Source: Candidatus Aldehydirespirator sp. (lineage in GTDB: Bacteria > Actinomycetota > Acidimicrobiia > Acidimicrobiales > Aldehydirespiratoraceae). From it: 64,000 bases of DNA. Positions 29,270-56,748 of this stretch are shown in pieces; within the stretch, counting starts at the first letter, position 1, and each line of letters starts with the position of its first letter. The notes beneath the pieces were generated by a model. That model did not search any database. It was not told the DNA's origin and saw only the letters and a list, made by a program, of their open reading frames with translations. The DNA lies in the NCBI GenBank assembly GCA_965221215.1, contig OZ244872.1, positions 907,601 through 971,600 of the forward strand. The letters are read 5' to 3'. The position numbers were made by a program, and so were the translations under genes.

Positions 29270-29368
29270 GAGGTTCACCGGCGCCGCCCCAGGTGGGTGG
29301 CGAGGGTGGGGGAGTGCTGGTTCACCGGCGCGGATCACCACCATCACCTGCGCCGGAGGGGTCGACGG

Positions 29369-32864: not shown

Positions 32865-32882
32865 GGCTACCCGCGCCCGCTC

Positions 32883-33353: not shown

Positions 33354-33476
33354 GGATGCGGTCCTTTCGTGGCTGTCGCGTCAGCCCGGCGGTCCGTGGA
33401 CCGGAGCGGCGGGCCGGCTCGGAACCGGCCCGCCGCCCGATCGTCGAATCAGCTGGTGACTATCGTCGCCGACCGG

Positions 33477-34589: not shown

Positions 34590-34678
34590 GATTGTTCCCC
34601 CTTGATTGAACGCCACCGGAGAGTTGGACCCCGGTGGGTGCCAGCGACGCTACTTCGGAGCGTCCGAGGCGTACAAGC

Positions 34679-36896: not shown

Positions 36897-36926
36897 TGTT
36901 GGTCCCCCTTGTGAGCCCGTCGCTCG

Positions 36927-38036: not shown

Positions 38037-38106
38037 GCTCACGACGCTCCCCGCGGTCCGCCGCCCGGCGGTGGGCTGTCCGGCCCTGCCACTGCGTGGA
38101 CTCCGA

Positions 38107-38892
38107 TCAGAAGAAGACCTGCTCGCCGCCGGTGAGGTTGAGGCTGGCACCGGTCGTGTAGCAGGCGTCGTCGGAGGCGAGGAACGCAGCCATGGCGCCG
38201 ATGTCGGTGGCCGTCCCGAGCCGCTTCAGGGGGATGGTCTCGATGTGCTCGGCCAGCAACTCGTCACGGTCGCGGTCCGCCGAGGCCGCGGCGGCGCCGA
38301 ATCCGGTCTTGGTCATGTTGGTGAACATGGTGCCGGGGCAGATGGCGTTGACGGTGATGTTGTGCTCAGCCAGTTCCTTGGCCAGCACCTGGGTGAGCCC
38401 GACCACCGCGAACTTGGAGGCCGAGTAGATCCCCCATCCCTGCCAGGCCACCTTGCCCGTCTGCGACGCTGTGTTGATGATCCGCCCCCAGCTGTGCCGC
38501 TTCATGATGTGGGCGGCGGCACGCGAGCAGGCCAGCACGCCCCGGACGTTCACCGTGAAGACCTTCTCGTACACCTCGTCGGGGGTGTCGATGACTGCGC
38601 CTATGGGCTGGGCGACGCCGGCGTTGTTGGCCAGGATGTCAAGCCGGCCGTAGGCGTCGGCCACCGCGCGCATCTGCTCTTCGACCTGGGCCGTGTCGGT
38701 CACGTCGAGGTGTATGGCCATGGGCTGGGCCCCCGACGGCGCGGCGGGCAGCGACGCGGCCACTTCGGAGGAGTCGAGCACGTCGGCGCACACCACCGCG
38801 GCCCCCTCGTCGGCGAACCGCCGAGCGATGCCCTCGCCCAGTCCTCGGGACGCGCCGGTCACCAGTGCGATCTTGTCGTCTAGCCGACCCAT
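38107..38892 (-). CDS. SDR family oxidoreductase
   Basis: Start ATG 38892 is preceded by AAGGGGGA. Motifs: TGASRGLG, NNAG and YSASK. The track ORF's extra 48 N-terminal codons cross the intergenic repeats and are rejected. Confidence 0.9.
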   Translation of the reverse strand: MGRLDDKIALVTGASRGLGEGIARRFADEGAAVVCADVLDSSEVAASLPAAPSGAQPMAIHLDVTDTAQVEEQMRAVADAYGRLDILANNAGVAQPIGAVIDTPDEVYEKVFTVNVRGVLACSRAAAHIMKRHSWGRIINTASQTGKVAWQGWGIYSASKFAVVGLTQVLAKELAEHNITVNAICPGTMFTNMTKTGFGAAAASADRDRDELLAEHIETIPLKRLGTATDIGAMAAFLASDDACYTTGASLNLTGGEQVFF

Positions 38893-38968
38893 TCCCGGTC
38901 CCCCTTGCTTGCAGCGAAGCGGACCGCACACTACATCACGGTGCCGATCCGGCAAATTGCCGAGCTTC

Positions 38969-39057
38969 GATGTGCAAATGAGGCAGCCACAAGGGTGTGA
39001 ACGAGATAGTCGAGCATGTGGAAATGAGATGGTCACAGATGTGAAAACGAGATGGGG
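38969..39057 (+). repeat. Four imperfect direct repeats, about 16 bp each at 21-25 bp spacing (iteron/operator-like)
   Basis: TGTGCAAATGAGGCAG (38971), TGTGAACGAGATAG (38996), TGTGGAAATGAGATGG (39017) and TGTGAAAACGAGATGG (39040). All four are in the same orientation in the intergenic region. Confidence 0.75.
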
Positions 39058-39078
39058 ACGCCCGATTTGCGGCCTGAC

Positions 39079-39103
39079 GGGGGGGGGGGGGGGGGGGGGG
39101 GGG
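39079..39103 (+). repeat. Uninterrupted homopolymer G25 (C25 on the minus strand)
   Basis: Counted directly: g at 39079-39103, flanked by ...cctgac and caaaact... Confidence 0.95.
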
Positions 39104-39173
39104 CAAAACTGCGAAGAAACTAAAAATAACGAAAAAGCACTCTAAGGTATTGAGATGAACTAGAATCGGAGGA
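39104..39173 (+). promoter_or_regulatory. AT-rich island with a candidate -10 (TAGAAT 39161-39166) immediately upstream of the ATPase start
   Basis: Hand count gives 25 G+C in 70 nt. TAGAAT ends 7 nt before the A of ATG 39174, geometry compatible with a leaderless or near-leaderless transcript. GGAGG at 39168-39172 is only 1 nt from the ATG. Confidence 0.4.
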
Positions 39174-40277
39174 ATGCCGAAACACCCCTCGGTGAATCCG
39201 TTCTCCCCCACGTTCGGTGCCACGCCCCCTCTGCTGGCGGGGCGTGACCGGATTCTCGACCGCTTCTCCGAGGCGTTGGACACCGGCCCCAACCACCCGG
39301 ACTACACGCTGCTGCTCATCGGCGACGGCGGCACCGGCAAGACGGCTCTGCTCAACGTGCTCGAGGAGCAGGCCGCCGACCGCGGCTGGGCAGTGATCAC
39401 CGCGGCGGCGTCGGCAGAGCCCGTGGCCAAGCGGATCACCGCCGAAGCCCTCAGGCATCTCGATCAGGCCGACGGCGACCGCGCCGAGCGCATCGGTGAG
39501 ACCGAGGACCTCGCATCGTCGGAGTCGTGCTCGCCGTGCAGCCTGCTGACTGCTCTGGGCGAGCTCGGTGCGGTCATGGCCGACAGCGGCAAGGGGCTGC
39601 TGGTGACCGTCGACGAACTCCACGCCACCGATCGCGACGACGTCCGCAACATCGAGGCTGCGATCCAGATCGTCACCCGCCGCCGGCAGATGCCGGTGGC
39701 GTTCGTGGCGGCGGCGCTTCCGGTGGTGGAGGACACCCACCTCGATGACTCCCACGCGACGTTCCTCGAGCGCTGCTCCCGCTTTCGCCTGGGCCCGCTC
39801 GACCCCGATGAGACTCGGCGGGCCCTGCGAGAGCCGATCATCAAGTGCGGCAGCGCCATCGACGACGACGCGCTCGACGCGGCCGCCGACGTCACCCGCG
39901 GGCATCCGTACATGGTGCAACTCGTCGGCTTCCACTCCTGGCAGATGCGCGAAGACCCCGGCACGCCGATCAGCGTCACCCACGCCAGCGCCGGGGCCCT
40001 CGAAGCCGAGGCGGCCATGGTGGACCAGATAGCCAGGCCGATCTGGAAGCGGCTCTCTCCGATGGACCGGCGCTTCCTGGTGGCGATGCTGCCCGGCAAC
40101 CCCGACTCGTCGCTGGCCGACGTGGCCACGAGGTTGGGGCGCTCGGTGCAGTACGCCCGCGTCTACCGGCGCCGGCTGGTGGCCGCGGGCGCGATCAGCC
40201 CGTCGGAGAACGGCCGGGTTCGTTTCTTGCACCAGGCGGTGCGGGTGCGGGCCGAGGCGGCCCAGAGGCAGCAGTGA
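39174..40277 (+). CDS. Orphan AAA+ ATPase with C-terminal winged-helix (ORC/Cdc6- or Arch_ATPase-like, STAND-type)
   Basis: 367 aa. The N-terminus is NPFSPTFGATPPLLAGRDRILDRF, Walker A is LLLIGDGGTGKTALL, and Walker B is GLLVTVDELH. The C-terminal LSPMDRRFLVAMLPGNPDSSLADVATRLGRSVQYARVYRRRLVAAGAI is a wHTH-like pattern. Confidence 0.8.
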   Translation: MPKHPSVNPFSPTFGATPPLLAGRDRILDRFSEALDTGPNHPDYTLLLIGDGGTGKTALLNVLEEQAADRGWAVITAAASAEPVAKRITAEALRHLDQADGDRAERIGETEDLASSESCSPCSLLTALGELGAVMADSGKGLLVTVDELHATDRDDVRNIEAAIQIVTRRRQMPVAFVAAALPVVEDTHLDDSHATFLERCSRFRLGPLDPDETRRALREPIIKCGSAIDDDALDAAADVTRGHPYMVQLVGFHSWQMREDPGTPISVTHASAGALEAEAAMVDQIARPIWKRLSPMDRRFLVAMLPGNPDSSLADVATRLGRSVQYARVYRRRLVAAGAISPSENGRVRFLHQAVRVRAEAAQRQQ

Positions 40278-40332
40278 TGGCAGAGACAGCAGTGCTGAAT
40301 GGTCGGAAGTGCTTGATGCATGCAAAGGAGGA

Positions 40333-43300
40333 ATGGTCTTGCAGTTCTTGAGACGGCGTACAAGTGGGTGGCTCTGCGCCCTGCGGCGCGACGGCGGGCC
40401 CGACTGTTTGCAGAGCCCCCCAAACGTTCGCAGGCTGGTGGCGGTGCTGACCGTGGCGCTGGTCGCGTCGCTGCTGGCGGCGGCGCCGGTGCCGTTGTTG
40501 TCGGATGCGGGAGCGCCGCTAGCGCCGGCTGAGGCTGAGGCGCAGCAGGTCACCTCGCCGGCGGTTCTCAACAGGGTCTCGATCATCGAGGGCCAGACAC
40601 GCATCTTTCGGATCTCCAACGTGACGTCGCGCCCCAGCTATTACGTGCATGCCAGCGTCGCGGGCTCCTTCAGCGCCGAGGCGAGCGACGTCACGATCAC
40701 CACGGACAACCTGCGCGGCCAGGCACAGACGATCACCCCCGACACCGACGCGCCGCGCGCCTACCGAGACTCCATCCACAGCACCATCGGCTTCGAGGTC
40801 ACCGCGAACGAGGACAGCGACGGCACCGGCGAAGAGACGTTCGGGGTGCGGCTGTGCACCACCGCTGACTGTCAGAGCGGCACGGTCCTCGGCGAGTGGG
40901 AGGTGGCCATCACCGAGCCCGGTTCGGACACCGTGCTCACCGGCACGGGCGCGACCGTCACCATCCCTGGCGGCAGCGCGCTCAGCGTCATGGAGGACTC
41001 CCGCAACGGCGACGGCCGCGACCGGCGCGCCACGTTCACCATCGCTCTTGACTCGGCGCCGACCGAGGACATCGTGATCGTCGGCCAGGTGGACACCACG
41101 GCTGCCAACGGAGACGGCGTTGCCACATCGATTGCGCGCATCAACGCGGCGCGCTCTCCCGACGAGGAACCGTCGACCACGGCGCGCTATGTGGCTGCCA
41201 GGTTCTCCAACATGGTCACGGTCACCGACCCCGGGAACCCGAATGCCGATCCGCCCGTGCCCCCGTCCCAGACGACTCGGGCACCGACGGCTGACGAGCT
41301 CGCCACACAGGTCAGCGTTGTCGCGTTCGACAACGCGGTCGACACCGCAGGCGGGACGCTGAGCGGCGATCTCACGTTCACCGTCTACAAGGACAACGAT
41401 CGCTTCCGCGGCACCGGCGCCGACGTCGACGGGAACGGCGATCCCATTCTTGGCAACGCCGAGACGTACCCCGGCATTGTCATCCCCAGCGTGCCGATCA
41501 GGGTCACCGATGACGACGAGCCGACGAGGATCCGGCTGCTGCCCACCAGTCCCGCGGACAACACCGCGACGGAGGGCAACACCGACAAGGCCACGGTCCT
41601 GGTGAAGCTCGACCGTGCGCTGGCCGCGGGCGAGGAGGTCACCGCGACGCTGTTCTTCAGCGGCGCCACGTTGGGCACGCACTTCTCGATGGCGGCGGCG
41701 AGCGGGCAGACCGGCGTGACCTACGCCGACTCCGACGACGGAACAAAGGGGCTCGTCACCCTCACCGGTGCGGGCGTTCAGCAGGGTGTGATCGAGGTCA
41801 CCGCGCTCACCGACAGCGACTCTGACAACCAGGCGCTGCAGATCGGGATGCCGCCGACTGACCAACCCTGGCAGAGGAACTATCACCGCTCGAGCCTCGC
41901 CGGCGGGGTCTGCGCCGCGCACGGCTGCCCGAACCGTCCACAGGGCGACCCCGGCCAGCGCTTCCAGTCGGTCACCCTCGCCGAGTCGGCGGCGGGCCTC
42001 ACAATCATCGAGTCCGATGACCCCGACGCCCGCTGGGTGGTCGAGGGCAACGACTACAGCTACAGCGTCCGGTTGAAGGCGCAGCCGTCGATCGATGTGA
42101 CCGTGGCCACATCGATCGCGTCGGGCGGATCGGTGCAGGCCGGGGCGACGCTCACGTTCACCAACAGCGACTGGGCGATGCCGCAGACGGTGACGGTGCG
42201 TCCCACCGACAACGATCTGGACGAGACGCGGCGGACGCTGACGGTGACCCACGCCTTCAGCGGCGACGCCACGTATGCCGCCCTCGCGGATGTCGCGCAC
42301 GAAATCGGCGTGCTCGATGACGACCCGACCACCATCAACATGGCTGGCGCGGGCGTGAACACCGACGGAACCTCTACCAACATGTCGAAGATCATGGTGG
42401 AGGGCGACGCCAGCCGCGTTGACCGCAGCCTCACTATCGAATTGGGCCGCGCTCTGGTTGAGGACGAGTATGTGCGCGTCCCGCTGCGGGTTGAGGCCGT
42501 CGCCAACGGCAACAATCCGGAGCTCCCGGACGATCCGCCCGACCAAGACGAAGATGACGACCCGCTGCCGAGCGACCTCGACCCGCGGCGCACGGTGGTG
42601 GACAGCTTCCGCGGGCCGCGCGCCAGCGCCAATGTGGCCTGGCCGCCGTATCACAACGATGTCGTGATGACTGCCACCGGCACCGGTGTGACCTATGAGC
42701 ACTCCAACCGCCACACCCCCAATCACATCGGTTTCCGCTATATCGAGTTCCGCGGCGCGGGCGCGCAGACCGCGACGATCGTGGTGCACGCCCGCGGCGG
42801 CTTCGACGACGGCGAGAGCTACGACGAGGCGTTCGCGGTCACCTTCCCCAACGACTTCTACGTCTTCGATGAGGACACCGGCCAGCCGGTCAGCAGCACG
42901 CCGGTGCAGGGCAACCTCGGCGGCGGCCTCGAAGCGCAACCGACCGGCTTGGAGGCCTGGTACGGCATCGCCGACGACGACAAGATCGCAGCGGCGCAGA
43001 CCACCGAGGTGGCCAACAGCTGGTCGGCGAAGCCTCCCAGCTTGAGCGACGGCGCCGAGTTCCGGCTGCTGTATGTCACCAGCGGAACCAGAAACGCCAG
43101 CGAGGACGGCTACGCCACCTACAACAATTTTGTGCGTGCCGAGATCACCGGCAACCAGCTCACACAGGGCGGAGTGCCGGACCTGGTGCCGTACGCCACC
43201 AAATTCGCCGCGGTGATCAGCACCAACTCCTCTCAGGGCGTCCGTGGAGGCAACGCCTCCCTCAACGCCAACCTGGAAGACCCGAGCAACGACGCTGCCA

Positions 43301-52300: not shown

Positions 52301-55300
52301 CGCAGGGGCACACTGCGGTTGTTCCCTATGCGGGGTTCTTCACCGTTGTGGGGTCCACCTCGGGCGTGCATCTGAGGGACCACGCGAACGTGGCGGGATC
52401 TGCGACGATGCCGTTCTATTGGCTGGGCGAGACCGGAGACACCACCAAGCGGGTCGCGGTGGACAACAGCCAGTTCCGCGGCGAGTGGATCGACACCGAG
52501 ACGCCGTCTTCGCAGAGCGTGCCCCGCAACGAGTCCGGCGCCGTGGTGTCGGTCGACAGCAACGGCTATTTCACCGGATCCACCGCCGCGGGGGCGCGGT
52601 CGGCCAATCCGCTGGGCTCGACGAACGTCACGGTCGGCTATCTCAACGACAGCGGCAGCGGCCGGGCGCCGCTGGGCAGCGGCCAGACGGTCGCCAACAC
52701 CGCCACGCGCAGCTTCTACGGGCTGTCGCCGGTGTTCGTGAGGGCCAGCGACCCTGTCGTCTCGGTGACCACATCGCAGACGTCGGTGGCTGAGGGCACC
52801 GCTTTGAGCTTCACCGTGAGCGCCGACCCCGCGCCGCCCAACGCGATAACAGTGCGGTTGTGGGTCTCGCAGAACTCCGGGCGCGACATGGTGCCCGTCG
52901 TCGGGGAGCAGATGGTGGCGTTCGCGGCGGGCGACACCTCCAAGACGCTCACGGTGGCCACTGCCGGCGACAACAGCGACGAGGCCGACGCCGAGGTGTC
53001 GGCGAGAGTGTTGAACAACGCCGGCTACACGGTGAGCGCCACCGCCGCCGAGGCGTCGGTGACAGTCACCGACAACGACGCCATGACCGTGTCGGTGTCT
53101 GGCGGCGGCGGAAGCGTGAGCGAGGGATCGAGCCGCGACTACACCGTCGATCCGGGCCGCAGCCTGTTGTCGGGTGAGACGGTGACGGTGAACTTCGCTC
53201 CGGCGGGCAGCGCCACCCGGGGCTCGGACTACACGATCACCTGCCACGGCACAGGCGTGACCTGCGCGGGCCTGGGCGGCACCACACCGAGCTTGACCAT
53301 CACTGGCGGCAGCGGCGTGCGCAACGCCACCATCCGCATCAACGCCCAGAACGACATGGTGCATCCCGAGTCCGGCGAGACCGCCGGGATCAGCCTGCGC
53401 TCAGGGCATGCCAGCACAGGCTCGGGCGGCACGTTCTCGGTGAGCGGCTCACCGTCGACGTTCACCATTGCGAGCACCGCCCCCGCCGCGATCACCGCGT
53501 CGTTCGATTTGGCCGCCTACGGGGTGGGGGAGGCGGCGGGTGCCCGCTCGGTGCCGGTGACGCTCTCGCGGGTTGCGCCCTCGGGTGGGCTGGTTGTGTC
53601 CTACACCACCGGCGGAGATGCGGTCTCGGGCGACGACTACAGCGGCGCGGGCGGCACGGTGACCGTCGCGGCGGGCCAGACCTCAGCGAGCATCTCTTTC
53701 ACGGTCATCGACGATGTATTGGCTGAGGGCGCTGAGACCTTGACGTTCACCCTCACCGACGGCGCGAACTACGACCTGGGGTCGCCGAGCCAGACCACGA
53801 TCACGATCAACGACAACGACATCGCCCCCTCCAGCATCACTTTGGGCGTTGACGACAACAGTGTGAACGAGGCCGACGGCGCGACGACGGTCACCGTGAC
53901 TGCCACCGTCAGCGGTTCGACACGCTTCGCGGAGTCCAAGACGGTGGCGGTGACGGTGGCGGGGTCGGGTGCCGCCAACACGGTGGGGTTCACTGCGAAC
54001 CCGTCGATGTTCAACATCACCATCGCCGCTGGCGCGCAGACCGGGACCGGCATGTTCACGCTGACCCCCACCGACAACAGCGTCGACGAGAACAACGAGA
54101 CGGTCACAGTGTCGGGAGCGCTGTCGGGGGTCACGGTGAACTCTGCGACGATCACCCTCATAGACGACGACACGACCGTGGCGACGCCGGTCACGGTCAC
54201 CTTGTCGGCGCCGGCGGGCGACGTCACCGAGGGCGCTAGCGGCGCCGCCGGACGCAAGGACGTCACGATCACCCTGGGTCGAGCGCTGGCCGGCACTGAG
54301 ACAATCACGGTGCCGCTGGAGGTGTTCGGCGCCACCGTCGCCACCGACTACAGCTTCGGGCTGCAGCCCGCCACCCAGGCCGGGGTGGCGCTTCTCACTT
54401 CGAACCCGTACAGCGCTCAGCATCCGGCGGTGCGCCTGTCGGCGGGAGCGTCGAGCGCGGTGCTGCGGTTCATGCCGGTGAACAACAGCGTGCGCACCCA
54501 GCCTCTTGTGACGATCAACAGGAACTCCAGTCATCAGACCACCGGTGGGGGCGGCGCGACGTTGGGGGCGGTGTCGGGCGGCCCGTTCAAGTTCTTGGTC
54601 ATCGACGACGAGACCGGCGATATCACCGTGCCGAGCAGTTGGGCGCTGGCCCCGTCGGGGCTGTCGGCGGGCGACGACTTCCGGCTGCTGTTCCGCTCCT
54701 CGACGACCCGCGACGCCACATCGTCGAACATCGCGGACTACGACTTCTTTGTGCGCGACGTGGTGGCGTTGGGCGGCCATAGCGCGGCGCTGCCCTATGC
54801 GGGGTTCTTCAAGGCGTTCGCGTCGACCCGCAGCGCCTCGGGCTCGACGGGCACCACCGCCCGGGTGCACAACAACATGGCCTCGGGCCACACCGGTCAC
54901 TTCAGCGGCGCGAACGACGTGTGGGCCGACGGATCCACCGTCCCCAACGCAGGCAACACGACGGGGACGCCGATCTATTGGCTAAACGGCGCCAAGCTCG
55001 CCAACAACTACGCCGACCTGTGCGACCAAGCCTTGAAGTCGGGCAGCGGGGTCACCACCGGCTGGGATCTCGACGACCCCCGCAGCGAGGACGGAAACCG
55101 CAACATTGCGGCGGGAACGAACCCCGGTCAGACCCATCAGGCATGGACCGGCACCGGCAACGCCTGCGAGGCCTACAACCACCCCCTCGGCGGCGACAAC
55201 AACGGCGACGTCTCGCGTGCCGCCAGCCACGACACGACCTGGGCGTTCATGCACCAGGCCCAAAACGCTCGATCACAGCAGCGGCCCCTCTATGGCATGT

Positions 55301-56748
55301 CGCCAGTGTTCAAGATCGCCGGCGCATCCCCGCCGCCACCGCCTCCGCCGCCGACGCCGGTCGCGTCGTTCGCGGCGGCCTCGTCCACCGTGGGGGAGGC
55401 GTCGGGCAGTCGCAACCTCCGGTTGGATCTCAACCCGGCGCCCGCCGCGGCCATCACCGTCAACTACACGCTGTCGGGCTCGGCGGTCCGCGGCAGCGAT
55501 TACACCATCGCAGGAGTCTCGTCCAACAACGGCACCGTCTCTGTCAATGCCAACCAGAGCATCGTGAACATCCCCATAGTGATCACAGACGACAACGCCG
55601 TAGAGAGTTCTGAGGCGATTGTTGTGACCCTCAACACCGGCTCGGGATACACGCTCACCGGCGCTGCCCATCGTGTGCACACCCGCACCATCACCGACAA
55701 CGACACCACCCCGACCACCCCGGTCGCGTCGTTCGCGGCGGGCGCATCGACCGTCAGTGAGGCGTCGGGCACCACGAACATCCGGCTGAACCTCACCCCG
55801 GCACCCACAGTCGGTATCACCGTGAGATACACCCTGTCTGGCTCGGCGGTTCGCGGCAGCGACTACACCATCTCAGGCGTCTCCTCCAACAACGCCACTG
55901 TTGCGGTCTCGGCCAATCAGGGGTTCGTGAACATCGGTGTGCGCATCGTCGATGACAGCACCCGGGAATCCGCCGAGACCATCCGCCTGACGCTCAACAC
56001 CGGCTCGGGCTACACGCTCACGGGTGCCACGAACCGGGTCCATACCCGCACGATCACCGACAACGACACCACCAGCCCACCGCCGCCTCCTCCACCGCCG
56101 CCTCCTCCACCGCCTCCGCCGCCGCCGCCTCCACCACCACCGCCTCCTCCCGCGCAGGATGAGTCGGAGACGGTTTTGGAGCCCGAGACCTTCGACGACA
56201 TCGACGAGGTCCACGAGGTGCACGCCTCCGATGTGGCCCAGGCCAACGAGATGGGCTGGCTCACCGGCGTCGGCTGCGACACCGGGGCGTTCTGCGGCCG
56301 CGAGGCCATGAACCGCTGGCAGCTCGCGGTCATGATCGTGCGAGCCCTGGACGGCGCCAATCCCGACGCCGATCCCGCCGCGCCCCGCTTCCGCGACGTG
56401 TCGCCTGCGGCCTGGTGGTCGGTCCATGTGCGGCGCCTCGCCCAGCTCGGCATCACACTGGGCTGCGACGCCAGACGGTTCTGCCCCGACCGGCCGGTGA
56501 CGCGCGCCGAGGCCGCGTCGCTGCTGGCACGCGCCTACGGGCTCACCACCGACGCGGAGACGAGCTTCACCGACCTCGACGAAGGCGACGTCCACGCCGA
56601 TGCGGTCGCCGCGCTCTACCGCTCCGGCATCACCAACGGCTGCGACGACGGACGGTTCTGCCCCTATCAGCCCCTTACCCGCCAGCAAGCCGCCAGCCTG
56701 CTGATACGGGCCCAGAACGCCGCCCAAGAAACCGACAACGACTCCTGA
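40333..56748 (+). CDS. Giant (about 5470 aa) secreted, SLH-anchored, Calx-beta-rich surface protein
   Basis: A single uninterrupted ORF (track 40309..56748). The signal-like N-terminus is NVRRLVAVLTVALVASLLAAAPVPLL...APAEAEA. It has dozens of beta-sandwich repeats, many with the Calx-beta signature (GTA..gDDY...GT.tF..G...k.i.i....D...E..E.F.v.L). It also has 4 lectin-like modules, a Pro25 spacer and 3 SLH repeats. The start is ambiguous among ATG 40309, ATG 40333 and TTG 40339. Confidence 0.9.
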   Translation: MVLQFLRRRTSGWLCALRRDGGPDCLQSPPNVRRLVAVLTVALVASLLAAAPVPLLSDAGAPLAPAEAEAQQVTSPAVLNRVSIIEGQTRIFRISNVTSRPSYYVHASVAGSFSAEASDVTITTDNLRGQAQTITPDTDAPRAYRDSIHSTIGFEVTANEDSDGTGEETFGVRLCTTADCQSGTVLGEWEVAITEPGSDTVLTGTGATVTIPGGSALSVMEDSRNGDGRDRRATFTIALDSAPTEDIVIVGQVDTTAANGDGVATSIARINAARSPDEEPSTTARYVAARFSNMVTVTDPGNPNADPPVPPSQTTRAPTADELATQVSVVAFDNAVDTAGGTLSGDLTFTVYKDNDRFRGTGADVDGNGDPILGNAETYPGIVIPSVPIRVTDDDEPTRIRLLPTSPADNTATEGNTDKATVLVKLDRALAAGEEVTATLFFSGATLGTHFSMAAASGQTGVTYADSDDGTKGLVTLTGAGVQQGVIEVTALTDSDSDNQALQIGMPPTDQPWQRNYHRSSLAGGVCAAHGCPNRPQGDPGQRFQSVTLAESAAGLTIIESDDPDARWVVEGNDYSYSVRLKAQPSIDVTVATSIASGGSVQAGATLTFTNSDWAMPQTVTVRPTDNDLDETRRTLTVTHAFSGDATYAALADVAHEIGVLDDDPTTINMAGAGVNTDGTSTNMSKIMVEGDASRVDRSLTIELGRALVEDEYVRVPLRVEAVANGNNPELPDDPPDQDEDDDPLPSDLDPRRTVVDSFRGPRASANVAWPPYHNDVVMTATGTGVTYEHSNRHTPNHIGFRYIEFRGAGAQTATIVVHARGGFDDGESYDEAFAVTFPNDFYVFDEDTGQPVSSTPVQGNLGGGLEAQPTGLEAWYGIADDDKIAAAQTTEVANSWSAKPPSLSDGAEFRLLYVTSGTRNASEDGYATYNNFVRAEITGNQLTQGGVPDLVPYATKFAAVISTNSSQGVRGGNASLNANLEDPSNDAAIYWVGGTKVADNTADFLDGTWDDEANPTRADGTAATISTAGYWTGSEADGQRADSCSGLTGSDRHLRAGATNVGYGLLNDNGRGPLGQAVDETSCQPAPNSERRPLYALSTEAFTISGGAAIEPAATAAEGSAVTFAVTITTAAPSGGITIPYTLADGRGYDNDPANIIATSTDYTDAASGSIVIAQGDTTGTITVNTTQDSTYESDHYFTVTLGTPTGTDAPQVQALKGTAIGTITDADDAPTIEFAPATATAAEGDGTVDVTVTKTGATLLPASVYWTTADDTASHPDDYTANAGYLQFAPGETSKTITIGIVADGASESAETFKVQLDAQQIVDAQIGSASEATVTVNDDGTSVSVPNVQFTSATQAVTEAATTLTVTVEADAAAPANTDVAFTVGGDATASSDYTAPSSPVTILAGQRRTTISVPILQDSASESPETIVLTLIDGTDYNLGSQTTHTITINDDDSSPIVEFASAASKGSEGNSAVVTVEASRPVAQNTAVTYTSTGGTATSGDDYTAPGGTVTIPSGQSTAAITIPLTADSMDDSGETIVLTLTDGTDYDLGSQTTHTVTISEVGFIFTQERVFVTEGGSAVRYGISLTDDPSGLNTALPACDYILGTDEDNPVDLPRCTPDQDPVFARVIVTSPVAPAPPAANPNPFEVLTSGNDLLPTLRFTRRNFHIPQYFTVYPLQDDDPDSEQNVRITHEVRGATDDSADFRDDSPYATGGSVNGVDTGLAVPDMPAYVSDDDAGHKEGLTLRLLDKDPDLPIVIQEGNKTGRFNLEWRGPTLGGDDEVAARLRITGGTYGKDYIVDAESTSSPRVTFELPIDDESTMDVDESHVENAEIIIRWLAPFGRVPSAQFRVVSLSDGKAKSGERHLGVHLLNAWSPDDSANKDNDTPDGVRLENGPQTKRIHVLSRDRIVVRQTGTEDGLKFEGLETSGSDAELTTNGAWAAVDEDGSTEHKLAFEMSSCVLPRTSAVVTVSTSDSSKLRVHASDDIDGVVDTLTWGPNNNPEGRCGEVHTVSFIADEDDDSDDEVVEVYVTLTSGYGNAYVDGTVVRTFEVRITDDDVPAGVTVFPTAITVREGAKKGAKVGEGDPRERTNQVAFKLNTDPGSGNTVLINTRGGGMAVQRDKSQHPMEFTGGESGTWDTWQFVDITAMDDNDNADDAETVKWSVTGTGDYGSVRDLSVEVTIIDDDPAVRISRETITMAEPHVESSRATGWTYEVVLNVKPHNGIVHVVPATGDTTAVSFGKNDDGPILTHRGLDFTPENWDAPQTVTIFPLADGDSDDETVTITHSISSQVTRTITNEDGTPAQVGAARNYRRVSVPSIEVSVLDSDRAEGIVVEPDAFVSEGGSGGFPVRLAAPDAVSLVVTGTHSGVVVDTDPSLDGEQRTLVFTEENWYEPQAVFLTAEQESDSSDTDDGVFDLTLTAWTAGAPAEVGQPPNPPVLASAYGTAPVRVHVYDDEFAGGSTFTVTGSSTVTEGAAPAIFTVQADTASSVAVDVTLHISETGDFVAGGDEGDQTVAFSGGSAVQNHQVPIVDDNLQESDGTIIAELKPGSGYRIGSPSRASVGVTDDGDTGTAAPVRITMAVADGDTSTGDVVEGAGDSTGYKTVTLTLDRALTSGETVTVPLTVSGAAVTTDYTFGLHGSGNTGVTLATSGSYSAQNPAVQFASGARVATLRFTPVNNDDRTQPAIDIRIGTVEASAGITHTTAGSPVGFLIRDDEMGVIEVPRTWALKPSGVGAGGEFRLLFITSETRTAESTDIEAYNDWAQGVAARNGHVSLKPYGGLLKVVGSTESVNARVNTGMWDPNTSGFVDGSTGRSSSGVRVYWLAPASAAKVADSYFEFFSHPWDGGTHQDTRDTLESGIARDSGSAIWTGSNTNGTAHSAPLGGNAQNWVRTGHAMTAGGATTNLSRDRATKTGTLPLYVMSPVFRVEGAEAELSISGGTVAEGGTLTVTVDLSAAAPSVLNIPVQMRTSGNPTASSADFSLSNSGNVAIAMGATSGTLTFTAEDDMIDEDSETLTLEFGTLPDGVIAGTTSSVGVTITDNDTAGVTVAETSGGTTVSEDGSTTTDTYTVVLDTEPLNNVVVTVTAPAGTQVSTDSGSTWHSSRNLTFNPSGSGIWSSPQTVTVRGQNDDIDNAGDERTISVTHAITDGDGSKYTTSTPSIAAVSVTVTDNDTAGVTVVQSGGNTVVAENGGTDTYTVALDTQPLSNVVVTLTSGASTAALLSGGGQTNQGTVTLTFTPTSWGAQTVTVRGVNDAIDNANDRRTVTITQSVTTGDTNGKYTTSTNVANVSVRVNDDGDTAAVTVTPSGGTTTVTEDGSDTDDYTVVLDTQPLSSVTITATAPAGAQVSDDGGTSWGSSVDLTFTSGTSGNWGTAQTVTVRGTQDIIDNPGDQRSITITHAITSGNGDGSRYTPSTPSKPSVAVRVNDDDPKPTQITLTTNRNTAVSEGTASTMVTVTATVQGPTRFGADKTVAVSVDASADVNGGANYVDMTAVADFNITIPAGDRTATGMFTITPDNDMVDESDNSIAVTGSVSGDSAVTVNPATPIMLRDNDNAPTVVNLSVTPNSISENGGARSISVTATVQGSTRFGTDKTVAVSVAGHNAAGAVGFTQVSTFSVVISAEQQTSSGSDSFTLTPDNNIWNEQDGSAVLSGTLSGVTVNGASVTLTNDDAEPPGVTLSVSDEMIGEADGAQTITVTATVQGATRYGTARTVNVSVAASGNADAVDFTASTPMAIMLAPGDRTATTTFTLTPTADSVDEFDETITVSGTGADIAAFTDASITLADDDATTLTMTAPAGAVAESGGTTDVTLTLSRALVDGESVTVPLDVVGAAARSDYTLGLQPSSQTGVALSVSGSDSVQAPKVTLTTGAETAVMRFTAVDDSTRTQPYVLVRYGTGARAPSGAGVDFAAPADGPVGWVITDNETGDIVVPQSWALSPSGVQNQGEPRFRLVFVSSAKRDASSTDIAEYDAFIRGLLAQGHTAVVPYAGFFTVVGSTSGVHLRDHANVAGSATMPFYWLGETGDTTKRVAVDNSQFRGEWIDTETPSSQSVPRNESGAVVSVDSNGYFTGSTAAGARSANPLGSTNVTVGYLNDSGSGRAPLGSGQTVANTATRSFYGLSPVFVRASDPVVSVTTSQTSVAEGTALSFTVSADPAPPNAITVRLWVSQNSGRDMVPVVGEQMVAFAAGDTSKTLTVATAGDNSDEADAEVSARVLNNAGYTVSATAAEASVTVTDNDAMTVSVSGGGGSVSEGSSRDYTVDPGRSLLSGETVTVNFAPAGSATRGSDYTITCHGTGVTCAGLGGTTPSLTITGGSGVRNATIRINAQNDMVHPESGETAGISLRSGHASTGSGGTFSVSGSPSTFTIASTAPAAITASFDLAAYGVGEAAGARSVPVTLSRVAPSGGLVVSYTTGGDAVSGDDYSGAGGTVTVAAGQTSASISFTVIDDVLAEGAETLTFTLTDGANYDLGSPSQTTITINDNDIAPSSITLGVDDNSVNEADGATTVTVTATVSGSTRFAESKTVAVTVAGSGAANTVGFTANPSMFNITIAAGAQTGTGMFTLTPTDNSVDENNETVTVSGALSGVTVNSATITLIDDDTTVATPVTVTLSAPAGDVTEGASGAAGRKDVTITLGRALAGTETITVPLEVFGATVATDYSFGLQPATQAGVALLTSNPYSAQHPAVRLSAGASSAVLRFMPVNNSVRTQPLVTINRNSSHQTTGGGGATLGAVSGGPFKFLVIDDETGDITVPSSWALAPSGLSAGDDFRLLFRSSTTRDATSSNIADYDFFVRDVVALGGHSAALPYAGFFKAFASTRSASGSTGTTARVHNNMASGHTGHFSGANDVWADGSTVPNAGNTTGTPIYWLNGAKLANNYADLCDQALKSGSGVTTGWDLDDPRSEDGNRNIAAGTNPGQTHQAWTGTGNACEAYNHPLGGDNNGDVSRAASHDTTWAFMHQAQNARSQQRPLYGMSPVFKIAGASPPPPPPPPTPVASFAAASSTVGEASGSRNLRLDLNPAPAAAITVNYTLSGSAVRGSDYTIAGVSSNNGTVSVNANQSIVNIPIVITDDNAVESSEAIVVTLNTGSGYTLTGAAHRVHTRTITDNDTTPTTPVASFAAGASTVSEASGTTNIRLNLTPAPTVGITVRYTLSGSAVRGSDYTISGVSSNNATVAVSANQGFVNIGVRIVDDSTRESAETIRLTLNTGSGYTLTGATNRVHTRTITDNDTTSPPPPPPPPPPPPPPPPPPPPPPPPPAQDESETVLEPETFDDIDEVHEVHASDVAQANEMGWLTGVGCDTGAFCGREAMNRWQLAVMIVRALDGANPDADPAAPRFRDVSPAAWWSVHVRRLAQLGITLGCDARRFCPDRPVTRAEAASLLARAYGLTTDAETSFTDLDEGDVHADAVAALYRSGITNGCDDGRFCPYQPLTRQQAASLLIRAQNAAQETDNDS
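43009..43653 (+). other. Lectin-like module copy 1 (about 200 aa, unassigned family)
   Basis: VANSWSAKPPSLSDGAEFRLLYVTSGTRNASEDGYATYNNFV...AIYWVGGTKVADNTADFLDGTWD...YWTGSEADG...RRPLYALSTEAF. Confidence 0.6.
44020..45030 (+). other. Block of three canonical Calx-beta domains (example region)
   Basis: Examples: EGDGTVDVTVTKTG...WTTADDTASHPDDYTANAGYLQFAPGETSKTITIGIVADGASESAETFKVQL and EGNSAVVTVEASR...TSTGGTATSGDDYTAPGGTVTIPSGQSTAAITIPLTADSMDDSGETIVLTL. Confidence 0.75.
48520..49146 (+). other. Lectin-like module copy 2
   Basis: VPRTWALKPSGVGAGGEFRLLFITSETRTAESTDIEAYNDWA...RVYWLAPASAAKVADSYFEFF...IWTGSNTNG...LPLYVMSPVFRV. Confidence 0.6.
49478..50645 (+). repeat. Three tandem ~125-130-aa domain repeats inside the giant gene
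   Basis: The units start DNDTAGVTVAETSGG..., DNDTAGVTVVQSGGN... and DDGDTAAVTVTPSGG... Each contains DTYTV.LDT.PL..V...., W...QTVTVRG..D.IDN and a (V/R)V.D(N/D)D boundary. Confidence 0.8.
52156..52746 (+). other. Lectin-like module copy 3
   Basis: VPQSWALSPSGVQNQGEPRFRLVFVSSAKRDASSTDIAEYDAFI...PFYWLGETGD...YFTGSTAAG...RSFYGLSPVFVR. Confidence 0.6.
54628..55323 (+). other. Lectin-like module copy 4
   Basis: VPSSWALAPSGLSAGDDFRLLFRSSTTRDATSSNIADYDFFV...PIYWLNGAKLANNYADLCD...AWTGTGNAC...RPLYGMSPVFKI. Confidence 0.6.
55351..56073 (+). repeat. Two tandem ~120-aa domain repeats (360 + 363 bp) just upstream of the Pro25 spacer
   Basis: One unit is PVASFAAASSTVGEASGSRNLRLDLNPAPAAAITVNYTLSGSAVRGSDYTIAGVSSNNGTVSV...HTRTITDNDTT. 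The other is PVASFAAGASTVSEASGTTNIRLNLTPAPTVGITVRYTLSGSAVRGSDYTISGVSSNNATVAV...HTRTITDNDTT. The DNA copies are clearly alignable by eye with many substitutions. Confidence 0.85.
56077..56151 (+). repeat. 25 consecutive proline codons (CCN) forming a Pro25 spacer
   Basis: Counted from cca at 56077 to ccc at 56149-56151. Mixed cca/ccg/cct/ccc codons are used. A shorter Pro run (SPPPPPPPPTP) lies at about 55327-55356. Confidence 0.9.
56191..56718 (+). other. Three S-layer homology (SLH) repeats, a cell-wall anchoring module
   Basis: FDDIDEVHEVHASDVAQANEMGWLTGVGCDTGAFCGREAMNRWQLAVMIVRAL; FRDVSPAAWWSVHVRRLAQLGITLGCDARRFCPDRPVTRAEAASLLARA; FTDLDEGDVHADAVAALYRSGITNGCDDGRFCPYQPLTRQQAASLLIRA. All three fit the SLH pattern F.DV...W....V..L...GI..G....F.P...vTRaeaA.ll.R. 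Confidence 0.8.

What the first reader, a model, noticed from the sequence alone, without database searches (positions are those of the whole stretch)
38969..56748. Candidate functional unit: repeat/G25/AT-island control region, orphan AAA+-wHTH ATPase and a 16.4-kb SLH-anchored surface-protein gene
Seen: three co-oriented elements sit back to back with no other gene between them. First is an intergenic region with four iteron-like direct repeats, a G25 tract and a ~36% G+C island. Second is a 367-aa Walker A/B ATPase with a winged-helix tail. Third, 55 nt later, is a ~5470-aa ORF. The ATPase and the giant ORF share the identical, atypically tight start context GGAGGAATG. Flanking genes on both sides (SDR/ABC cluster, serC) are ordinary housekeeping or metabolic genes. 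Inference: the ATPase-wHTH protein may bind the repeats and control, possibly switchably via the G tract, expression of a very costly surface protein. I know of no described system with this architecture, so this is the best candidate for something new in the window.
Basis: partly seen in the sequence, partly recalled or inferred. Interest (0 to 1): 0.75.

Follow-up and report, generated by a model that had tools for sequence, protein, structure and literature searches.

The report
ATPase cassette beside phase-variable giant adhesin
The repeats, the G25 run, the ATPase gene and the 16-kb surface-protein gene are all real, but they are a lineage-specific neighbourhood rather than a conserved new system: a common stand-alone ATPase cassette sits next to a giant cell-surface gene whose relatives almost always carry a slippery G/C run at their start.

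Summary
All the described elements exist at the stated coordinates. The proposed three-part unit fails its own refutation test.

- **Pairing:** the ATPase is not an orphan (1,253 clusters at E<=1e-30). Only the ~95%-identical strain (L001/L003) has the giant gene beside it. None of 80 other family loci does, and no giant-gene homologue (6 lineages) has this ATPase.
- **Repeats and G25:** window 38969-39104 is exactly the one block that does not align with L001, which keeps the same gene pair without it.
- **AT island:** this is the ATPase's own control region. It is a degenerate copy of a family-specific A-rich 18-nt (8+10) tandem array, followed by TAGAAT 7 nt before the ATG, which indicates a leaderless mRNA. 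So "GGAGGAATG" is not a ribosome-binding site.
- **Giant gene:** all seven homologous loci carry a 12-30-nt G/C run at the 5' end, and the length differs between identical-flank contigs (G14 vs G17). This is a contingency-locus signature.

Best reading: an ATPase cassette that probably regulates itself lies upstream of, and is probably co-transcribed with, a fast-evolving S-layer-anchored adhesin-like gene. G25 is a probably hypermutable tract in the spacer between two divergent promoters.

The parts
38107..38892 (-). SDR (short-chain dehydrogenase) gene, divergent from the ATPase. It is context only, not part of the unit.
   Evidence: Pfam adh_short_C2 2e-60. Same gene and orientation in L001.
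38894..38968 (.). Conserved SDR-proximal part of the intergenic region. It probably holds the SDR promoter and 5' UTR, with a TAGTGT -10-like hexamer on the minus strand.
   Evidence: Collinear with L001 up to 38968, within a 9.9-kb block of 94.4% identity. The promoter reading is inference from the sequence.
38970..39057 (+). Four direct repeats ATGTG-N-AAA-N-GAGAT, spaced ~23 nt. Strain-specific, function unknown.
   Evidence: Absent from L001/L003 and from all 82 loci held at the time of the search. Not enriched upstream of other giant genes.
39079..39103 (+). G25 homopolymer, 71-95 nt upstream of the ATPase ATG. It abuts the distal end of the A-tract array. Probably a hypermutable simple-sequence tract.
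   Evidence: Absent from L001. Comparable tracts occur at the 5' end of all 7 giant-gene homologue loci, with length polymorphism.
39104..39147 (+). A-rich array: CAAAACTG | CGAAGAAA | CTAAAAATAA | CGAAAAAG | CACTCTAAGG. It is a short, degenerate copy (~2 units) of the family-specific 18-nt (8+10) tandem repeat and is the presumed operator of the ATPase.
   Evidence: Conserved in L001. Period 18 is the best lag in 38 of 79 family upstream regions against 2.3% of shuffles. 39 of 43 genome-wide hits lie directly upstream of this gene family. The pattern occurs nowhere else in an A-rich context in the window.
39161..39166 (+). TAGAAT, a -10-like hexamer 7 nt before the ATG, implying a leaderless ATPase mRNA. 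The 'GGAGGA' at 39168-39173 lies in the stretch between the -10 hexamer and the transcription start (the discriminator).
   Evidence: 27 of 27 clade-A relatives (>=51% identity) have TANNNT 6-8 nt before the start codon. L001 has TAGATT-CGGGCGA-ATG.
39174..40277 (+). 367-aa stand-alone AAA+/STAND-like ATPase with a C-terminal winged helix (AAA_16 family).
   Evidence: Foldseek top matches are archaeal Orc1/Cdc6 (1w5t, 2qby, 1fnn) and P. abyssi PABY2304 2qen, TM 0.66-0.69.
40278..40332 (+). 55-nt spacer with GGAGG at 40327-40331. It has no terminator and no -10-like hexamer. It contains an 18-nt tandem duplication spanning the ATPase stop codon that L001 lacks.
40333..56748 (+). Giant gene, 5,471 aa from the ATG at 40333. 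The conserved alternative start is TTG at 40339. Domains in order: signal-peptide-like N-terminus, at least 7 Calx-beta stretches, four copies of an unassigned ~220-aa domain, a poly-proline linker, C-terminal SLH anchor.
   Evidence: Mosaic 68-89% DNA identity to L001 against 94% in the flank.
56077..56150 (+). (CCN)n tract encoding the poly-proline linker ahead of the SLH domains.
56230..56745 (+). S-layer-homology (SLH) cell-wall anchor region.
   Evidence: Pfam SLH 1.8e-15, 2 stretches. Coordinates are approximate, derived from the translation.

Best explanation
The locus is a lineage-specific juxtaposition of two independent kinds of element, not a dedicated three-part system.

**(1) The ATPase cassette.** The ATPase belongs to a large family of solo AAA+/STAND-like ATPase-wHTH genes. 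The family has several paralogues per genome in sponge-associated Acidimicrobiia and also occurs on actinobacterial plasmids. Each member carries its own compact control region: a tandem array of short purine/A-rich repeats (typically 18 nt = 8+10), then a TANNNT -10 element. In this clade the start codon follows 6-8 nt later, giving a leaderless mRNA. The window's 'AT island' is that region. Inferred mechanism: the protein binds its own array cooperatively through the winged helix, with the AAA+ module driving ATP-dependent oligomerisation, and so regulates its own promoter.

**(2) The giant gene.** It encodes a rapidly diverging, S-layer-anchored, Calx-beta-rich adhesin-like protein. In every other genome sampled, members of this gene family have a 12-30-nt G or C homopolymer in the promoter-proximal region or the N-terminal coding region. 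That is the signature of slipped-strand phase variation (a contingency locus).

**(3) This lineage only.** The ATPase cassette lies immediately upstream of the giant gene. With no terminator or promoter-like element in the 55-nt spacer, the giant gene is most likely transcribed by read-through from the ATPase promoter.

**(4) The repeat + G25 block.** The four 23-nt repeats plus G25 form a strain-specific, fast-evolving spacer between the divergent SDR and ATPase promoters. G25 is probably length-unstable. It could modulate the ATPase/giant-gene promoter by changing the spacing or phasing of upstream sites, or by non-B DNA.

Shown: anatomy, distribution, conservation patterns, tract polymorphism in homologues. 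Inferred: DNA binding, self-regulation, co-transcription, switching.
For: **Family size and paralogy:**

**Pairing only in L001/L003:** tblastn of the giant protein against 82 loci, neighbour tables and neighbour clustering show no conserved partner. Giant-gene homologues lack the ATPase.

**The array is family-specific:**
- TRF finds period 18 in most loci.
- Lag 18 is the best lag in 38 of 79 upstream regions against 2.3% of shuffles.
- 39 of 43 hits across 1.66 Mb lie directly upstream of the family gene.
- Short tandem repeats also precede plasmid-borne and distant members.
- The array unit type tracks the recognition-helix subfamily.

**Leaderless architecture:** 27 of 27 clade-A members. 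GGAGGA is not conserved.

**Fold:** pLDDT 86. Top matches are Orc1/Cdc6, 2qen and RuvB. Weak HTH_24 hits occur in 22 of 40 members.

**Homopolymer tracts:**
- 7 of 7 giant-gene homologue loci have a tract, against a background of 19 tracts in 1.54 Mb.
- Lengths differ: G14 vs G17 with identical flanks, and G14 vs G7 in orthologous loci.
- Frame analysis places the tract inside the coding region in L083 and L089, and 31-42 nt upstream of the start in the others.
- Other tracts lie upstream of an SLH/FN3 protein, a ResIII helicase, a DUF499 protein and a sialidase.

**The homology break with L001 is exactly 38969-39104**.

**No terminator or sigma-70 consensus in the spacer**.

**Literature:** Calx-beta proteins are enriched in sponge-symbiotic Acidimicrobiia (PMC11706023).
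Against: - No experiment or transcript data. DNA binding, self-regulation, co-transcription and switching are all inferred.
- The window's own array is short (~2 units) and did not pass my periodicity threshold.
- Array type tracking the wHTH subfamily is also what plain co-inheritance would give.
- Upstream conservation against 4-fold degenerate sites was inconclusive.
- G25 has no second copy to compare. L001 has no tract, and both metagenome scans found nothing.
- The G14/G17 difference might be assembler or sequencing noise, and the two contigs might come from the same sample.
- Three of 7 giant-gene lineages with some ATPase-wHTH gene directly upstream hints at a link that this explanation treats as hot-spot co-location.
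- Plasmid homologues lie next to ParA-like genes in 2 of 5 inspected records. This keeps a replication or maintenance role open.
Confidence: 0.6

Rival explanations
1. One reading: a dedicated regulator-target unit. The ATPase-wHTH binds the four upstream repeats and controls the giant surface-protein gene, and G25 acts as an on/off switch.
For: - The two genes are adjacent and co-oriented with a 55-nt gap and no terminator.
- The gene pair is kept in L001/L003.
- Homopolymer tracts are typical of the giant-gene family.
- Three of 7 giant-gene lineages have some solo ATPase-wHTH gene directly upstream.
- L014 has a C12 tract ~40 nt upstream of its ATPase array.
Against: - 0 of 80 other ATPase loci and 0 of 7 giant-gene loci show the pairing.
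- The four repeats and G25 are missing in the nearest relative, which has the same gene pair.
- The repeat motif is not found in any other locus.
- The family-conserved repeats are the A-tract array instead.
Confidence: 0.12
2. The ATPase plus its array is an initiator/iteron-type module: an Orc1/Cdc6-like Rep protein with its origin, or a plasmid-maintenance protein. The chromosomal copies would be integrated or domesticated minimal replicons, and adjacency to the giant gene would be incidental.
For: - The fold resembles Orc1/Cdc6, with weak DnaA/Hda and DnaA-PDB hits.
- AT-rich tandem direct repeats of iteron-like length (18 nt) sit immediately upstream of the gene.
- 71 plasmid records carry homologues. 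Two of 5 inspected sit next to ParA-like ATPases, and one homologue lies at the start of a plasmid record.
Against: - There are 2-3 or more copies per chromosome, among ordinary metabolic genes, with no integrase or other plasmid genes consistently nearby.
- The arrays overlap the gene's own promoter region and lack the inverted ORB-type repeats that flank an unwinding element.
- Plasmid homologues are only 27-35% identical and are annotated only as 'ATP-binding protein'.
- I found no literature support.
Confidence: 0.1
3. G25 is a sequencing or assembly artefact (for example poly-G from two-colour Illumina chemistry) and has no biological meaning.
For: - The closest relative lacks it.
- No second copy of this strain could be found.
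- Homopolymer lengths are error-prone in all platforms (general knowledge).
Against: - The tract is internal, and both flanks are collinear with L001.
- Similar 11-30-nt tracts occur in assemblies whose contig names suggest long reads (my inference), at the 5' ends of the homologous gene family and of other surface or defence genes.
- Chance expectation is ~4e-7.
Confidence: 0.06
4. The ATPase is a minimal STAND-type sensor of a conflict or defence system located in a variable island. It has no role in transcription of its neighbours.
For: - nSTAND1 and nSTAND3/5/6 Pfam hits.
- Neighbours include PIN/antitoxin pairs, a ResIII helicase, DUF499 and AAA_14/DUF4143 genes, transposases and resolvases.
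Against: - There is no effector or sensor domain in the 367 aa.
- No PADLOC family matches (best E 0.005).
- Many copies sit among housekeeping genes.
- The model does not explain the family-specific upstream arrays.
Confidence: 0.08

Closest known systems
Simple-sequence contingency loci. Examples: poly-G/C tracts controlling Neisseria porA/opc, Bordetella fim genes, Campylobacter surface genes, Mycobacterium tuberculosis homopolymer tracts (PMC1891110, PMC8355987, PMC10334774 listed; details from general knowledge).
   Same: - A long G/C homopolymer lies in the promoter-proximal or 5' coding region of a surface-protein gene family.
- Tract length differs between near-identical sequences.
- Other tracts in these genomes sit in front of surface and restriction/defence-type genes.
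   Different: - The tracts are unusually long (12-30 nt).
- The organism is a high-G+C sponge-associated Acidimicrobiia, for which I found no report of phase variation.
- In the window the tract is not at the giant gene but 1.25 kb upstream, in front of the ATPase promoter. The nearest relative has no tract.
- Switching itself is untested.
Archaeal Orc1/Cdc6 initiators, and the PF01637 'archaeal ATPase' / PABY2304 (PDB 2qen) group.
   Same: - AAA+ base, lid and C-terminal winged helix in a ~370-aa protein.
- Best structural matches, TM 0.5-0.69.
- Repeats lie next to the gene.
   Different: - 12-16% sequence identity.
- Pfam ORC-CDC6-like is hit weakly by only 5 of 40 members and ATPase_2 by 22 of 40, all sub-threshold for the window protein.
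- The host is bacterial, the gene is multi-copy, and the repeats are direct tandem repeats overlapping the gene's own promoter rather than inverted ORB elements flanking an origin.
Iteron-regulated plasmid Rep proteins (pPS10 RepA, R6K pi, RK2 TrfA type).
   Same: Tandem direct repeats of 17-22-bp class in an AT-rich stretch directly upstream of the gene for a winged-helix DNA-binding protein. Self-regulation is expected. Relatives occur on plasmids.
   Different: The protein has an AAA+ fold, not the WH1-WH2 Rep fold. The context is chromosomal, with several copies per genome. The units are contiguous at an 18-nt period, not spaced at ~22 bp.
STAND NTPases (nSTAND1; MalT, AfsR/SARP, LAL regulators with AAA_16 domains).
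   Same: The NTPase / helical / winged-helix core. nSTAND1 scores 28.6 bits against a cut-off of 27.1. AfsR/SARP-type regulators bind direct repeats overlapping the -35 region (general knowledge).
   Different: No sensor repeats and no separate effector or DNA-binding domain. The protein is only 367 aa.
Giant repetitive bacterial adhesins and SLH-anchored surface proteins. 'Eukaryotic-like' Calx-beta proteins of sponge symbionts (PMC11706023).
   Same: Multi-kb gene, tandem Calx-beta domains, SLH anchor, fast mosaic divergence. Calx-beta proteins are enriched in sponge-symbiotic Acidimicrobiia.
   Different: It contains four copies of an unassigned ~220-aa domain that could not be modelled. 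Its binding partner is unknown.

Membership tests
SSR-mediated contingency (phase-variable) locus | A long simple-sequence tract in the promoter region or 5' coding region of the controlled gene. | tested here: met
   G25 lies 71-95 nt upstream of the ATPase start. 7 of 7 giant-gene homologue loci have G/C tracts of 12-30 nt within ~20-46 nt of the likely start, or inside the N-terminal coding region.
SSR-mediated contingency (phase-variable) locus | Tract length varies among closely related cells or strains. | tested here: inconclusive
   Met for homologues: L086 G14 vs L087 G17 with 100% identical flanks, and L004 G14 vs L002 G7. Not testable for the window's G25: L001 has no tract, and no other copy was found. 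Assembler noise cannot be excluded.
SSR-mediated contingency (phase-variable) locus | A length change switches expression on or off. | not testable with these tools
   In silico only. In L083 and L089 the upstream start joins the signal peptide only at tract lengths 13/16 and 11/14, and the assembled lengths (15, 12) are out of frame.
Orc1/Cdc6-type AAA+ initiators | AAA+ module with Walker A/B motifs, a lid and a C-terminal winged helix. | tested here: met
   Invariant G53/G55/T57 and D147/E148 (K56 in >=90%). Model pLDDT 86. Foldseek matches 1w5t, 2qby and 1fnn at E ~1e-11.
Orc1/Cdc6-type AAA+ initiators | The gene sits beside a replication origin, with ORB-type inverted repeats flanking an AT-rich unwinding element. 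One or few copies per replicon. | tested here: not met
   The repeats are direct 18-nt tandem arrays overlapping the gene's own promoter. There are 2-3 or more paralogues per chromosome in varied contexts.
STAND NTPases (nSTAND1) | An NTPase / helical / winged-helix core recognised by the family model. | tested here: met
   nSTAND1 scores 28.6 bits against a cut-off of 27.1. 29 of 40 family members hit it.
STAND NTPases (nSTAND1) | A fused sensor (repeat) domain and an effector domain. | tested here: not met
   The 367-aa protein is fully accounted for by the ATPase, lid and winged helix.
Iteron-regulated Rep/ori modules | Tandem direct repeats of ~17-22 bp adjacent to the gene. | tested here: met
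   An 18-nt period holds family-wide. The window itself has only ~2 degenerate units.
Iteron-regulated Rep/ori modules | A Rep-type (WH1-WH2) initiator on an autonomous replicon. | tested here: not met
   The fold is AAA+. The context is chromosomal between SDR and adhesin genes. Plasmid relatives exist, but at 27-35% identity.
Known anti-phage defence systems (PADLOC) | A match to a defence-system protein model. | tested here: not met
   Best E-value is 0.005 (SspC, partial).
SLH-anchored cell-surface proteins | SLH domains together with an N-terminal secretion signal. | tested here: met
   SLH scores 1.8e-15 with 2 stretches at the C-terminus. The N-terminus has a charged region followed by a hydrophobic stretch, aa ~33-56. 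No dedicated signal-peptide predictor was available.

The most novel reading that the evidence does not exclude
The solo ATPase-wHTH genes with their private tandem arrays would be an uncharacterised class of self-contained, ATP-driven DNA-binding switches. They are present in several paralogues per genome and on plasmids. In this strain one of them would have become the promoter donor and regulator of a giant adhesin. G25 would then make the regulator itself phase-variable, giving a two-tier, 'phasevarion'-like stochastic control of a very costly host-interaction protein in a sponge symbiont. The recurrent presence of a solo ATPase-wHTH gene of either family (AAA_16 or AAA_14/DUF4143) directly upstream of the giant gene in 3 of 7 lineages would then reflect function rather than an insertion hot spot.
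Probability: 0.12. Interest if true: 0.8.

Novelty: new member of a known kind. Interest (0 to 1): 0.45.

Why it matters
**Hypermutable tracts.** If the tracts really switch these giant Calx-beta/SLH proteins, sponge-associated Acidimicrobiia would use the same stochastic surface-variation strategy as mucosal pathogens. That bears on how symbionts evade or tune recognition by the host and by phages. I found no report of phase variation in sponge symbionts.

**ATPase family.** Separately, this ATPase family now comes with a concrete, testable hypothesis. It comprises over a thousand 50%-identity clusters, and every source-given name I saw was generic. Each gene has a private 18-nt A-tract array and, in this clade, a leaderless promoter. 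A specific DNA target can therefore be named for binding assays for each paralogue.

Tried and rejected
1. I searched for other copies of the window's G-tract locus, to read length variation directly. The exact ATPase protein is not on record. A pattern spanning the tract found nothing in the metagenome contigs.
2. The second metagenome scan, for giant-gene relatives, gave no confirmed hit.
3. I tested whether the four window repeats are a conserved part of the giant gene's control region. Their motif is no better matched upstream of the tracts in six other loci than in random 250-nt segments. It is absent from all 82 loci held at the time of the search. Rejected.
4. I compared identity of the upstream 130 nt with identity at 4-fold degenerate sites in orthologous pairs, to test for purifying selection on the array. 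The result was inconclusive, because global alignment of A-rich sequence has a high baseline.
5. I tried to name the four-copy ~220-aa domain of the giant protein. Pfam and PDB sequence searches gave nothing, though the segment I submitted was offset and only partly covered the domain. The AF2 model had pLDDT 42.6, so I ran no fold search.
6. PADLOC gave no match for the ATPase. Rfam gave none for the intergenic region.
7. No sigma-70 consensus promoter or intrinsic terminator was found in 38700-40700 or after the giant gene.
8. A search for a regulon using the clade-A array pattern found only the ATPase's own promoter in the window.
9. The literature gave nothing on this ATPase family, on its arrays, or on Clavibacter plasmid replication genes that would identify the plasmid homologue.
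10. I considered that the ATPase cassette was inserted between an ancestral tract and the giant gene. This is plausible, but no outgroup has SDR and the giant gene adjacent, so it stays speculation.
Full report
**1. What is in the sequence**

The intergenic region 38894-39173 (280 nt) lies between a minus-strand SDR gene (38107-38892; adh_short_C2 2e-60) and a plus-strand 367-aa ORF (39174-40277). It contains three features:
- Four direct repeats ATGTG-N-AAA-N-GAGAT at 38970-39057. These form two ~46-nt units (74% identical), TRF period 23.
- A perfect G25 at 39079-39103. Chance expectation is ~4e-7.
- A 35.7% G+C stretch at 39104-39173, in a 69.3% G+C window.

The ORF is an AAA_16/nSTAND1 P-loop ATPase. 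Fifty-five nt after its stop codon comes an uninterrupted ORF running to 56748. It is 5,471 aa from the ATG at 40333, with at least 7 Calx-beta stretches and C-terminal SLH domains. Downstream are two aminotransferase genes.

The physical observation is therefore correct. The control region, however, is a divergent promoter region shared with the SDR gene, not a unit co-oriented with it.

**2. The closest relative dissects the region**

Two assemblies of a ~95%-identical strain (L001 from ENA; L003 = JAJEDD010000044.1, 'Acidimicrobiia bacterium jk18xAbins.52') have the same order: SDR on the minus strand, then ATPase and giant gene on the plus strand.

blastn shows 94.4% identity over 29111-38968. 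The homology breaks at exactly 38969-39104, and alignment resumes from 39105. The four repeats and G25 (136 nt) are replaced in L001 by 79 nt of poorly alignable sequence with no repeat and no tract. The AT island, by contrast, is conserved.

The 'identical tight start context' is also not conserved:
- L001 has GGGCGAATG before the ATPase.
- L001 has ATT instead of ATG at the giant gene.
- The conserved start candidate is TTG at 40339, 7 nt after GGAGG, which is a normal Shine-Dalgarno spacing.

**3. The ATPase is a member of a big family with its own conserved control region**

The family is large. A word-indexed search found more than 200 homologues. A full HMM search found 8,456 clusters at E<=1e-3 and 1,253 at E<=1e-30.

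Eighty further genomic loci, almost all from Acidimicrobiia MAGs and many by their names sponge-associated (Poriferisodalis, Poriferisocius, Aldehydirespirator, Spongiisociaceae), show 2-3 or more paralogues per chromosome.

The AF2 model (pLDDT 86) best matches archaeal Orc1/Cdc6 and the P. abyssi PABY2304 ATPase (2qen), followed by RuvB and RFC. The architecture is AAA+ base, lid and winged helix. Weak HTH_24 hits occur in 22 of 40 members.

The unexpected regularity is upstream of the gene. Nearly every member is preceded by a low-G+C, purine/A-rich island built of short tandem repeats. Four results support this:
- TRF reports period 18 in most loci.
- Lag 18 is the best autocorrelation lag in 38 of 79 loci, against 2.3% of shuffles. 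Side peaks at 8, 10, 28 and 36 indicate an 8+10 substructure.
- I scanned all 1.66 Mb of fetched DNA for A/T-rich windows with lag-18 identity of 0.72 or more. Of 43 hits, 39 lie directly upstream of this gene family.
- Unit sequences differ between subfamilies: CGAAAAGA/CGAATAAA, GTGATAAA, GTGAGAAA, CTAAAG..CAAAA, TTGCAAA, GCGAAAAGCTCAGAAAAA. They track the sequence just N-terminal to the invariant Y-x-x-Y-R-x-R-L recognition helix.

Distant members also have short tandem repeats just before the start. Examples are a soil-type metagenome contig and the Clavibacter and Brevibacterium plasmids.

In the window's clade (>=51% identity), 27 of 27 genes have a TANNNT hexamer 6-8 nt before the start codon. 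This is the arrangement of leaderless actinobacterial mRNAs (general knowledge).

In the window this reads CGAAGAAA-CTAAAAATAA-CGAAAAAG-CACTCTAAGG ... TAGAAT-CGGAGGA-ATG. The 'AT island' is the ATPase's own array plus promoter. 'GGAGGA' lies between the -10 hexamer and the transcription start (the discriminator), so it is not a ribosome-binding site.

I infer that the protein binds its own array and regulates itself. I did not show this, and co-inheritance could produce the same array/helix correlation.

**4. The pairing is not conserved**

From the ATPase side:
- tblastn of the giant protein against all ATPase-centred loci finds it downstream only in L001/L003.
- Four other loci have unrelated Calx-beta, SLH or lectin-like fragments elsewhere within 10 kb.
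- Neighbour tables and clustering show no conserved partner. Recurrent neighbours are AAA_14/DUF4143 ATPases, PIN/antitoxin pairs and transporters.

From the giant-gene side:
- Homologues of its N-terminal 1,000 aa (42-47% identity) were located in seven loci representing six lineages.
- None has the AAA_16 ATPase.
- Their upstream neighbours are a DDE transposase, a resolvase, an acyltransferase, an unknown gene, an intact co-oriented AAA_14/DUF4143 gene in L084, and a DUF4143 fragment in L088.

Counting the window lineage, 3 of 7 giant-gene lineages have some solo ATPase-wHTH gene directly upstream. AAA_14 genes number 19 in 1.65 Mb and cluster near the AAA_16 genes. I cannot decide between a functional link and a shared insertion hot spot.

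**5. Homopolymer tracts are a hallmark of the giant-gene family**

All seven homologue loci carry G or C runs of 12-30 nt at the 5' end. The background is 19 tracts of 10 nt or more in 1.54 Mb of ATPase-centred loci, about 1 per 80 kb.

Frame analysis gives two arrangements:
- In L084, L085, L086/87 and L088 the tract lies 31-42 nt upstream of a start codon that is followed by a charged n-region and a hydrophobic core.
- In L083 and L089 the tract lies inside an N-terminal extension. It is in frame only at lengths 13/16 and 11/14, and the assembled lengths are out of frame.

Tract length also varies. L086 and L087 encode the identical protein with 100% identical flanks but have G14 and G17. 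L004 has G14 where orthologous L002 has G7.

Other tracts in these genomes lie upstream of the following genes:
- an SLH/FN3 surface protein (L016, 62 nt)
- a ResIII restriction-type helicase (L002, 32 nt)
- a DUF499 protein (L047)
- a sialidase/LamG protein (L079, 291 nt)

This is the classic target spectrum of contingency loci (general knowledge; reviews listed). It also argues that G25 is real rather than a poly-G artefact.

In the window the tract is not at the giant gene. It lies in front of the ATPase array, abutting its distal unit. L014 shows a similar C12 about 40 nt upstream of its array.

**6. How the locus probably works**

The spacer 40278-40332 has no terminator and no TANNNT hexamer (sequence). 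It does have a good Shine-Dalgarno sequence for the giant gene. Read-through from the leaderless ATPase promoter is therefore the parsimonious source of giant-gene transcription in this lineage. If the ATPase regulates its own promoter, it would de facto co-regulate the adhesin. That would be a lineage-specific capture, not a conserved system.

G25 lies upstream of the array, so a change in its length would not alter the array-to-promoter spacing. It could change the phasing of anything bound at 38970-39057, or form non-B DNA.

The giant gene itself evolves as a mosaic: 68-89% DNA identity to L001 against 94% in the flank. This is typical of exposed surface proteins. Calx-beta proteins are reported as enriched in sponge-symbiotic Acidimicrobiia (PMC11706023).

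**7. Rivals**

- **Dedicated-regulator model:** it fails on distribution.
- **Initiator/iteron reading:** it is kept alive by the Orc1/Cdc6-like fold, the iteron-like arrays and 71 plasmid records with 27-35% identical homologues, two of five inspected lying next to ParA-like genes. Against it are the multi-copy chromosomal distribution among housekeeping genes and the overlap of each array with the gene's own promoter.
- **Defence-type STAND reading:** it lacks an effector domain and any PADLOC match.
- **Artefact reading of G25:** it is unlikely (section 5).

**8. Verdict**

The interpretation as a novel three-part system is not supported.

What remains is an ordinary kind of thing in a new setting: a probable SSR-associated, fast-evolving giant adhesin gene in a sponge symbiont. 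It sits beside a member of an uncharacterised but very common ATPase-wHTH family.

The family-wide 18-nt arrays and the tract/adhesin association are the useful by-products. Both are directly testable.

Noticed in passing
L002-L082, about 110 to 25 nt upstream of each ATPase start; window 39104-39147: A family-specific tandem array of A-rich 18-nt (8+10) units precedes the solo AAA_16 ATPase-wHTH genes. Of 43 such arrays in 1.66 Mb, 39 lie directly upstream of this family. The unit sequence tracks the recognition-helix subfamily.
   Followed up: yes
L083 7816-7826 and 7923-7937; L084 7956-7969; L085 7937-7966; L086 5905-5918; L087 1297-1313; L088 5810-5822 and 5940-5958; L089 1358-1369: Every homologue of the giant gene has a 12-30-nt G or C run at its 5' end. 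L086 and L087 have identical flanks but G14 and G17. In L083 and L089 the tract is inside the coding region and out of frame as assembled.
   Followed up: yes
L016 15302-15316 and 15575-15591; L002 8104-8120; L047 19741-19751; L079 11342-11359; L055 2118-2132: Other long G/C tracts in these Acidimicrobiia genomes sit upstream of an SLH/FN3 surface protein, a ResIII restriction-type helicase, a DUF499 protein, a sialidase/LamG protein and a secreted-looking 522-aa protein. This suggests genome-wide use of contingency loci.
   Followed up: partly
L084 6496-7761; L088 4983-5438; L004, L005, L025, L056, L067, L075 and others: AAA_14/DUF4143 ATPase-wHTH genes cluster near the AAA_16-family genes and lie directly upstream of the giant gene in 2 of 6 other lineages. 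Several have their own ~22-nt direct repeats upstream (L067, L073, L063). That is the same period class as the window's four repeats.
   Followed up: partly
window 40333-56748 compared with L001 11142-21104: The giant gene is a mosaic of 68-89% DNA identity to the sister strain, while the 9.9-kb upstream flank is 94.4% identical. In other genomes its homologues are split by frameshifts or by a DDE transposase (L084). One continues as a called 16,600-aa product (L088).
   Followed up: partly
window giant protein, aa ~885-1105, 2725-2935, 3940-4150, 4760-4995 (nt ~42970-43662, 48490-49152, 52135-52782, 54595-55332): Four copies of an unassigned ~220-aa domain (W..P.G...FRLLF.TS ... YW ... WTGS ... 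PLY.MSPVF). It has no Pfam or PDB sequence match, though the one copy submitted was only partly covered by the query. The AF2 model has pLDDT 42.6. A related domain occurs in a convergent gene in L014, which has a C12 tract at its 5' end.
   Followed up: partly
window 55357-56073 and 56077-56150: A 363-nt tandem duplication (2 copies, 75% identical) encodes two Calx-beta-like modules. It is followed by a (CCN)n tract encoding ~27 consecutive prolines before the SLH anchor.
   Followed up: no
window 40263-40298: An 18-nt tandem duplication (CAGAGGCAGCAGTGATGG / CAGAGACAGCAGTGCTGA) spans the ATPase stop codon. L001 lacks it.
   Followed up: no
window 1656-1665: A second, shorter homopolymer (G10) in the window. 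I did not examine its context.
   Followed up: no
L037 and L041 (match starts at ATPase residue 147); L041 9945-10006: N-terminally truncated ATPase copies (70% identical to residues 147-367). In L041 a CGAATAAGAGCGAAAAGA array directly abuts the truncated gene.
   Followed up: no
L092 (Clavibacter pCI3 1413-2582), L095 (Arthrobacter pDCT5), L093, L094, L096: Homologues at 27-35% identity occur on 71 plasmid records, mostly actinobacterial, annotated only as 'ATP-binding protein'. In two of five inspected records they lie next to ParA-like ATPase genes. Short tandem repeats precede the gene (AGACAAGG x3; TCTATAAAC x3).
   Followed up: partly
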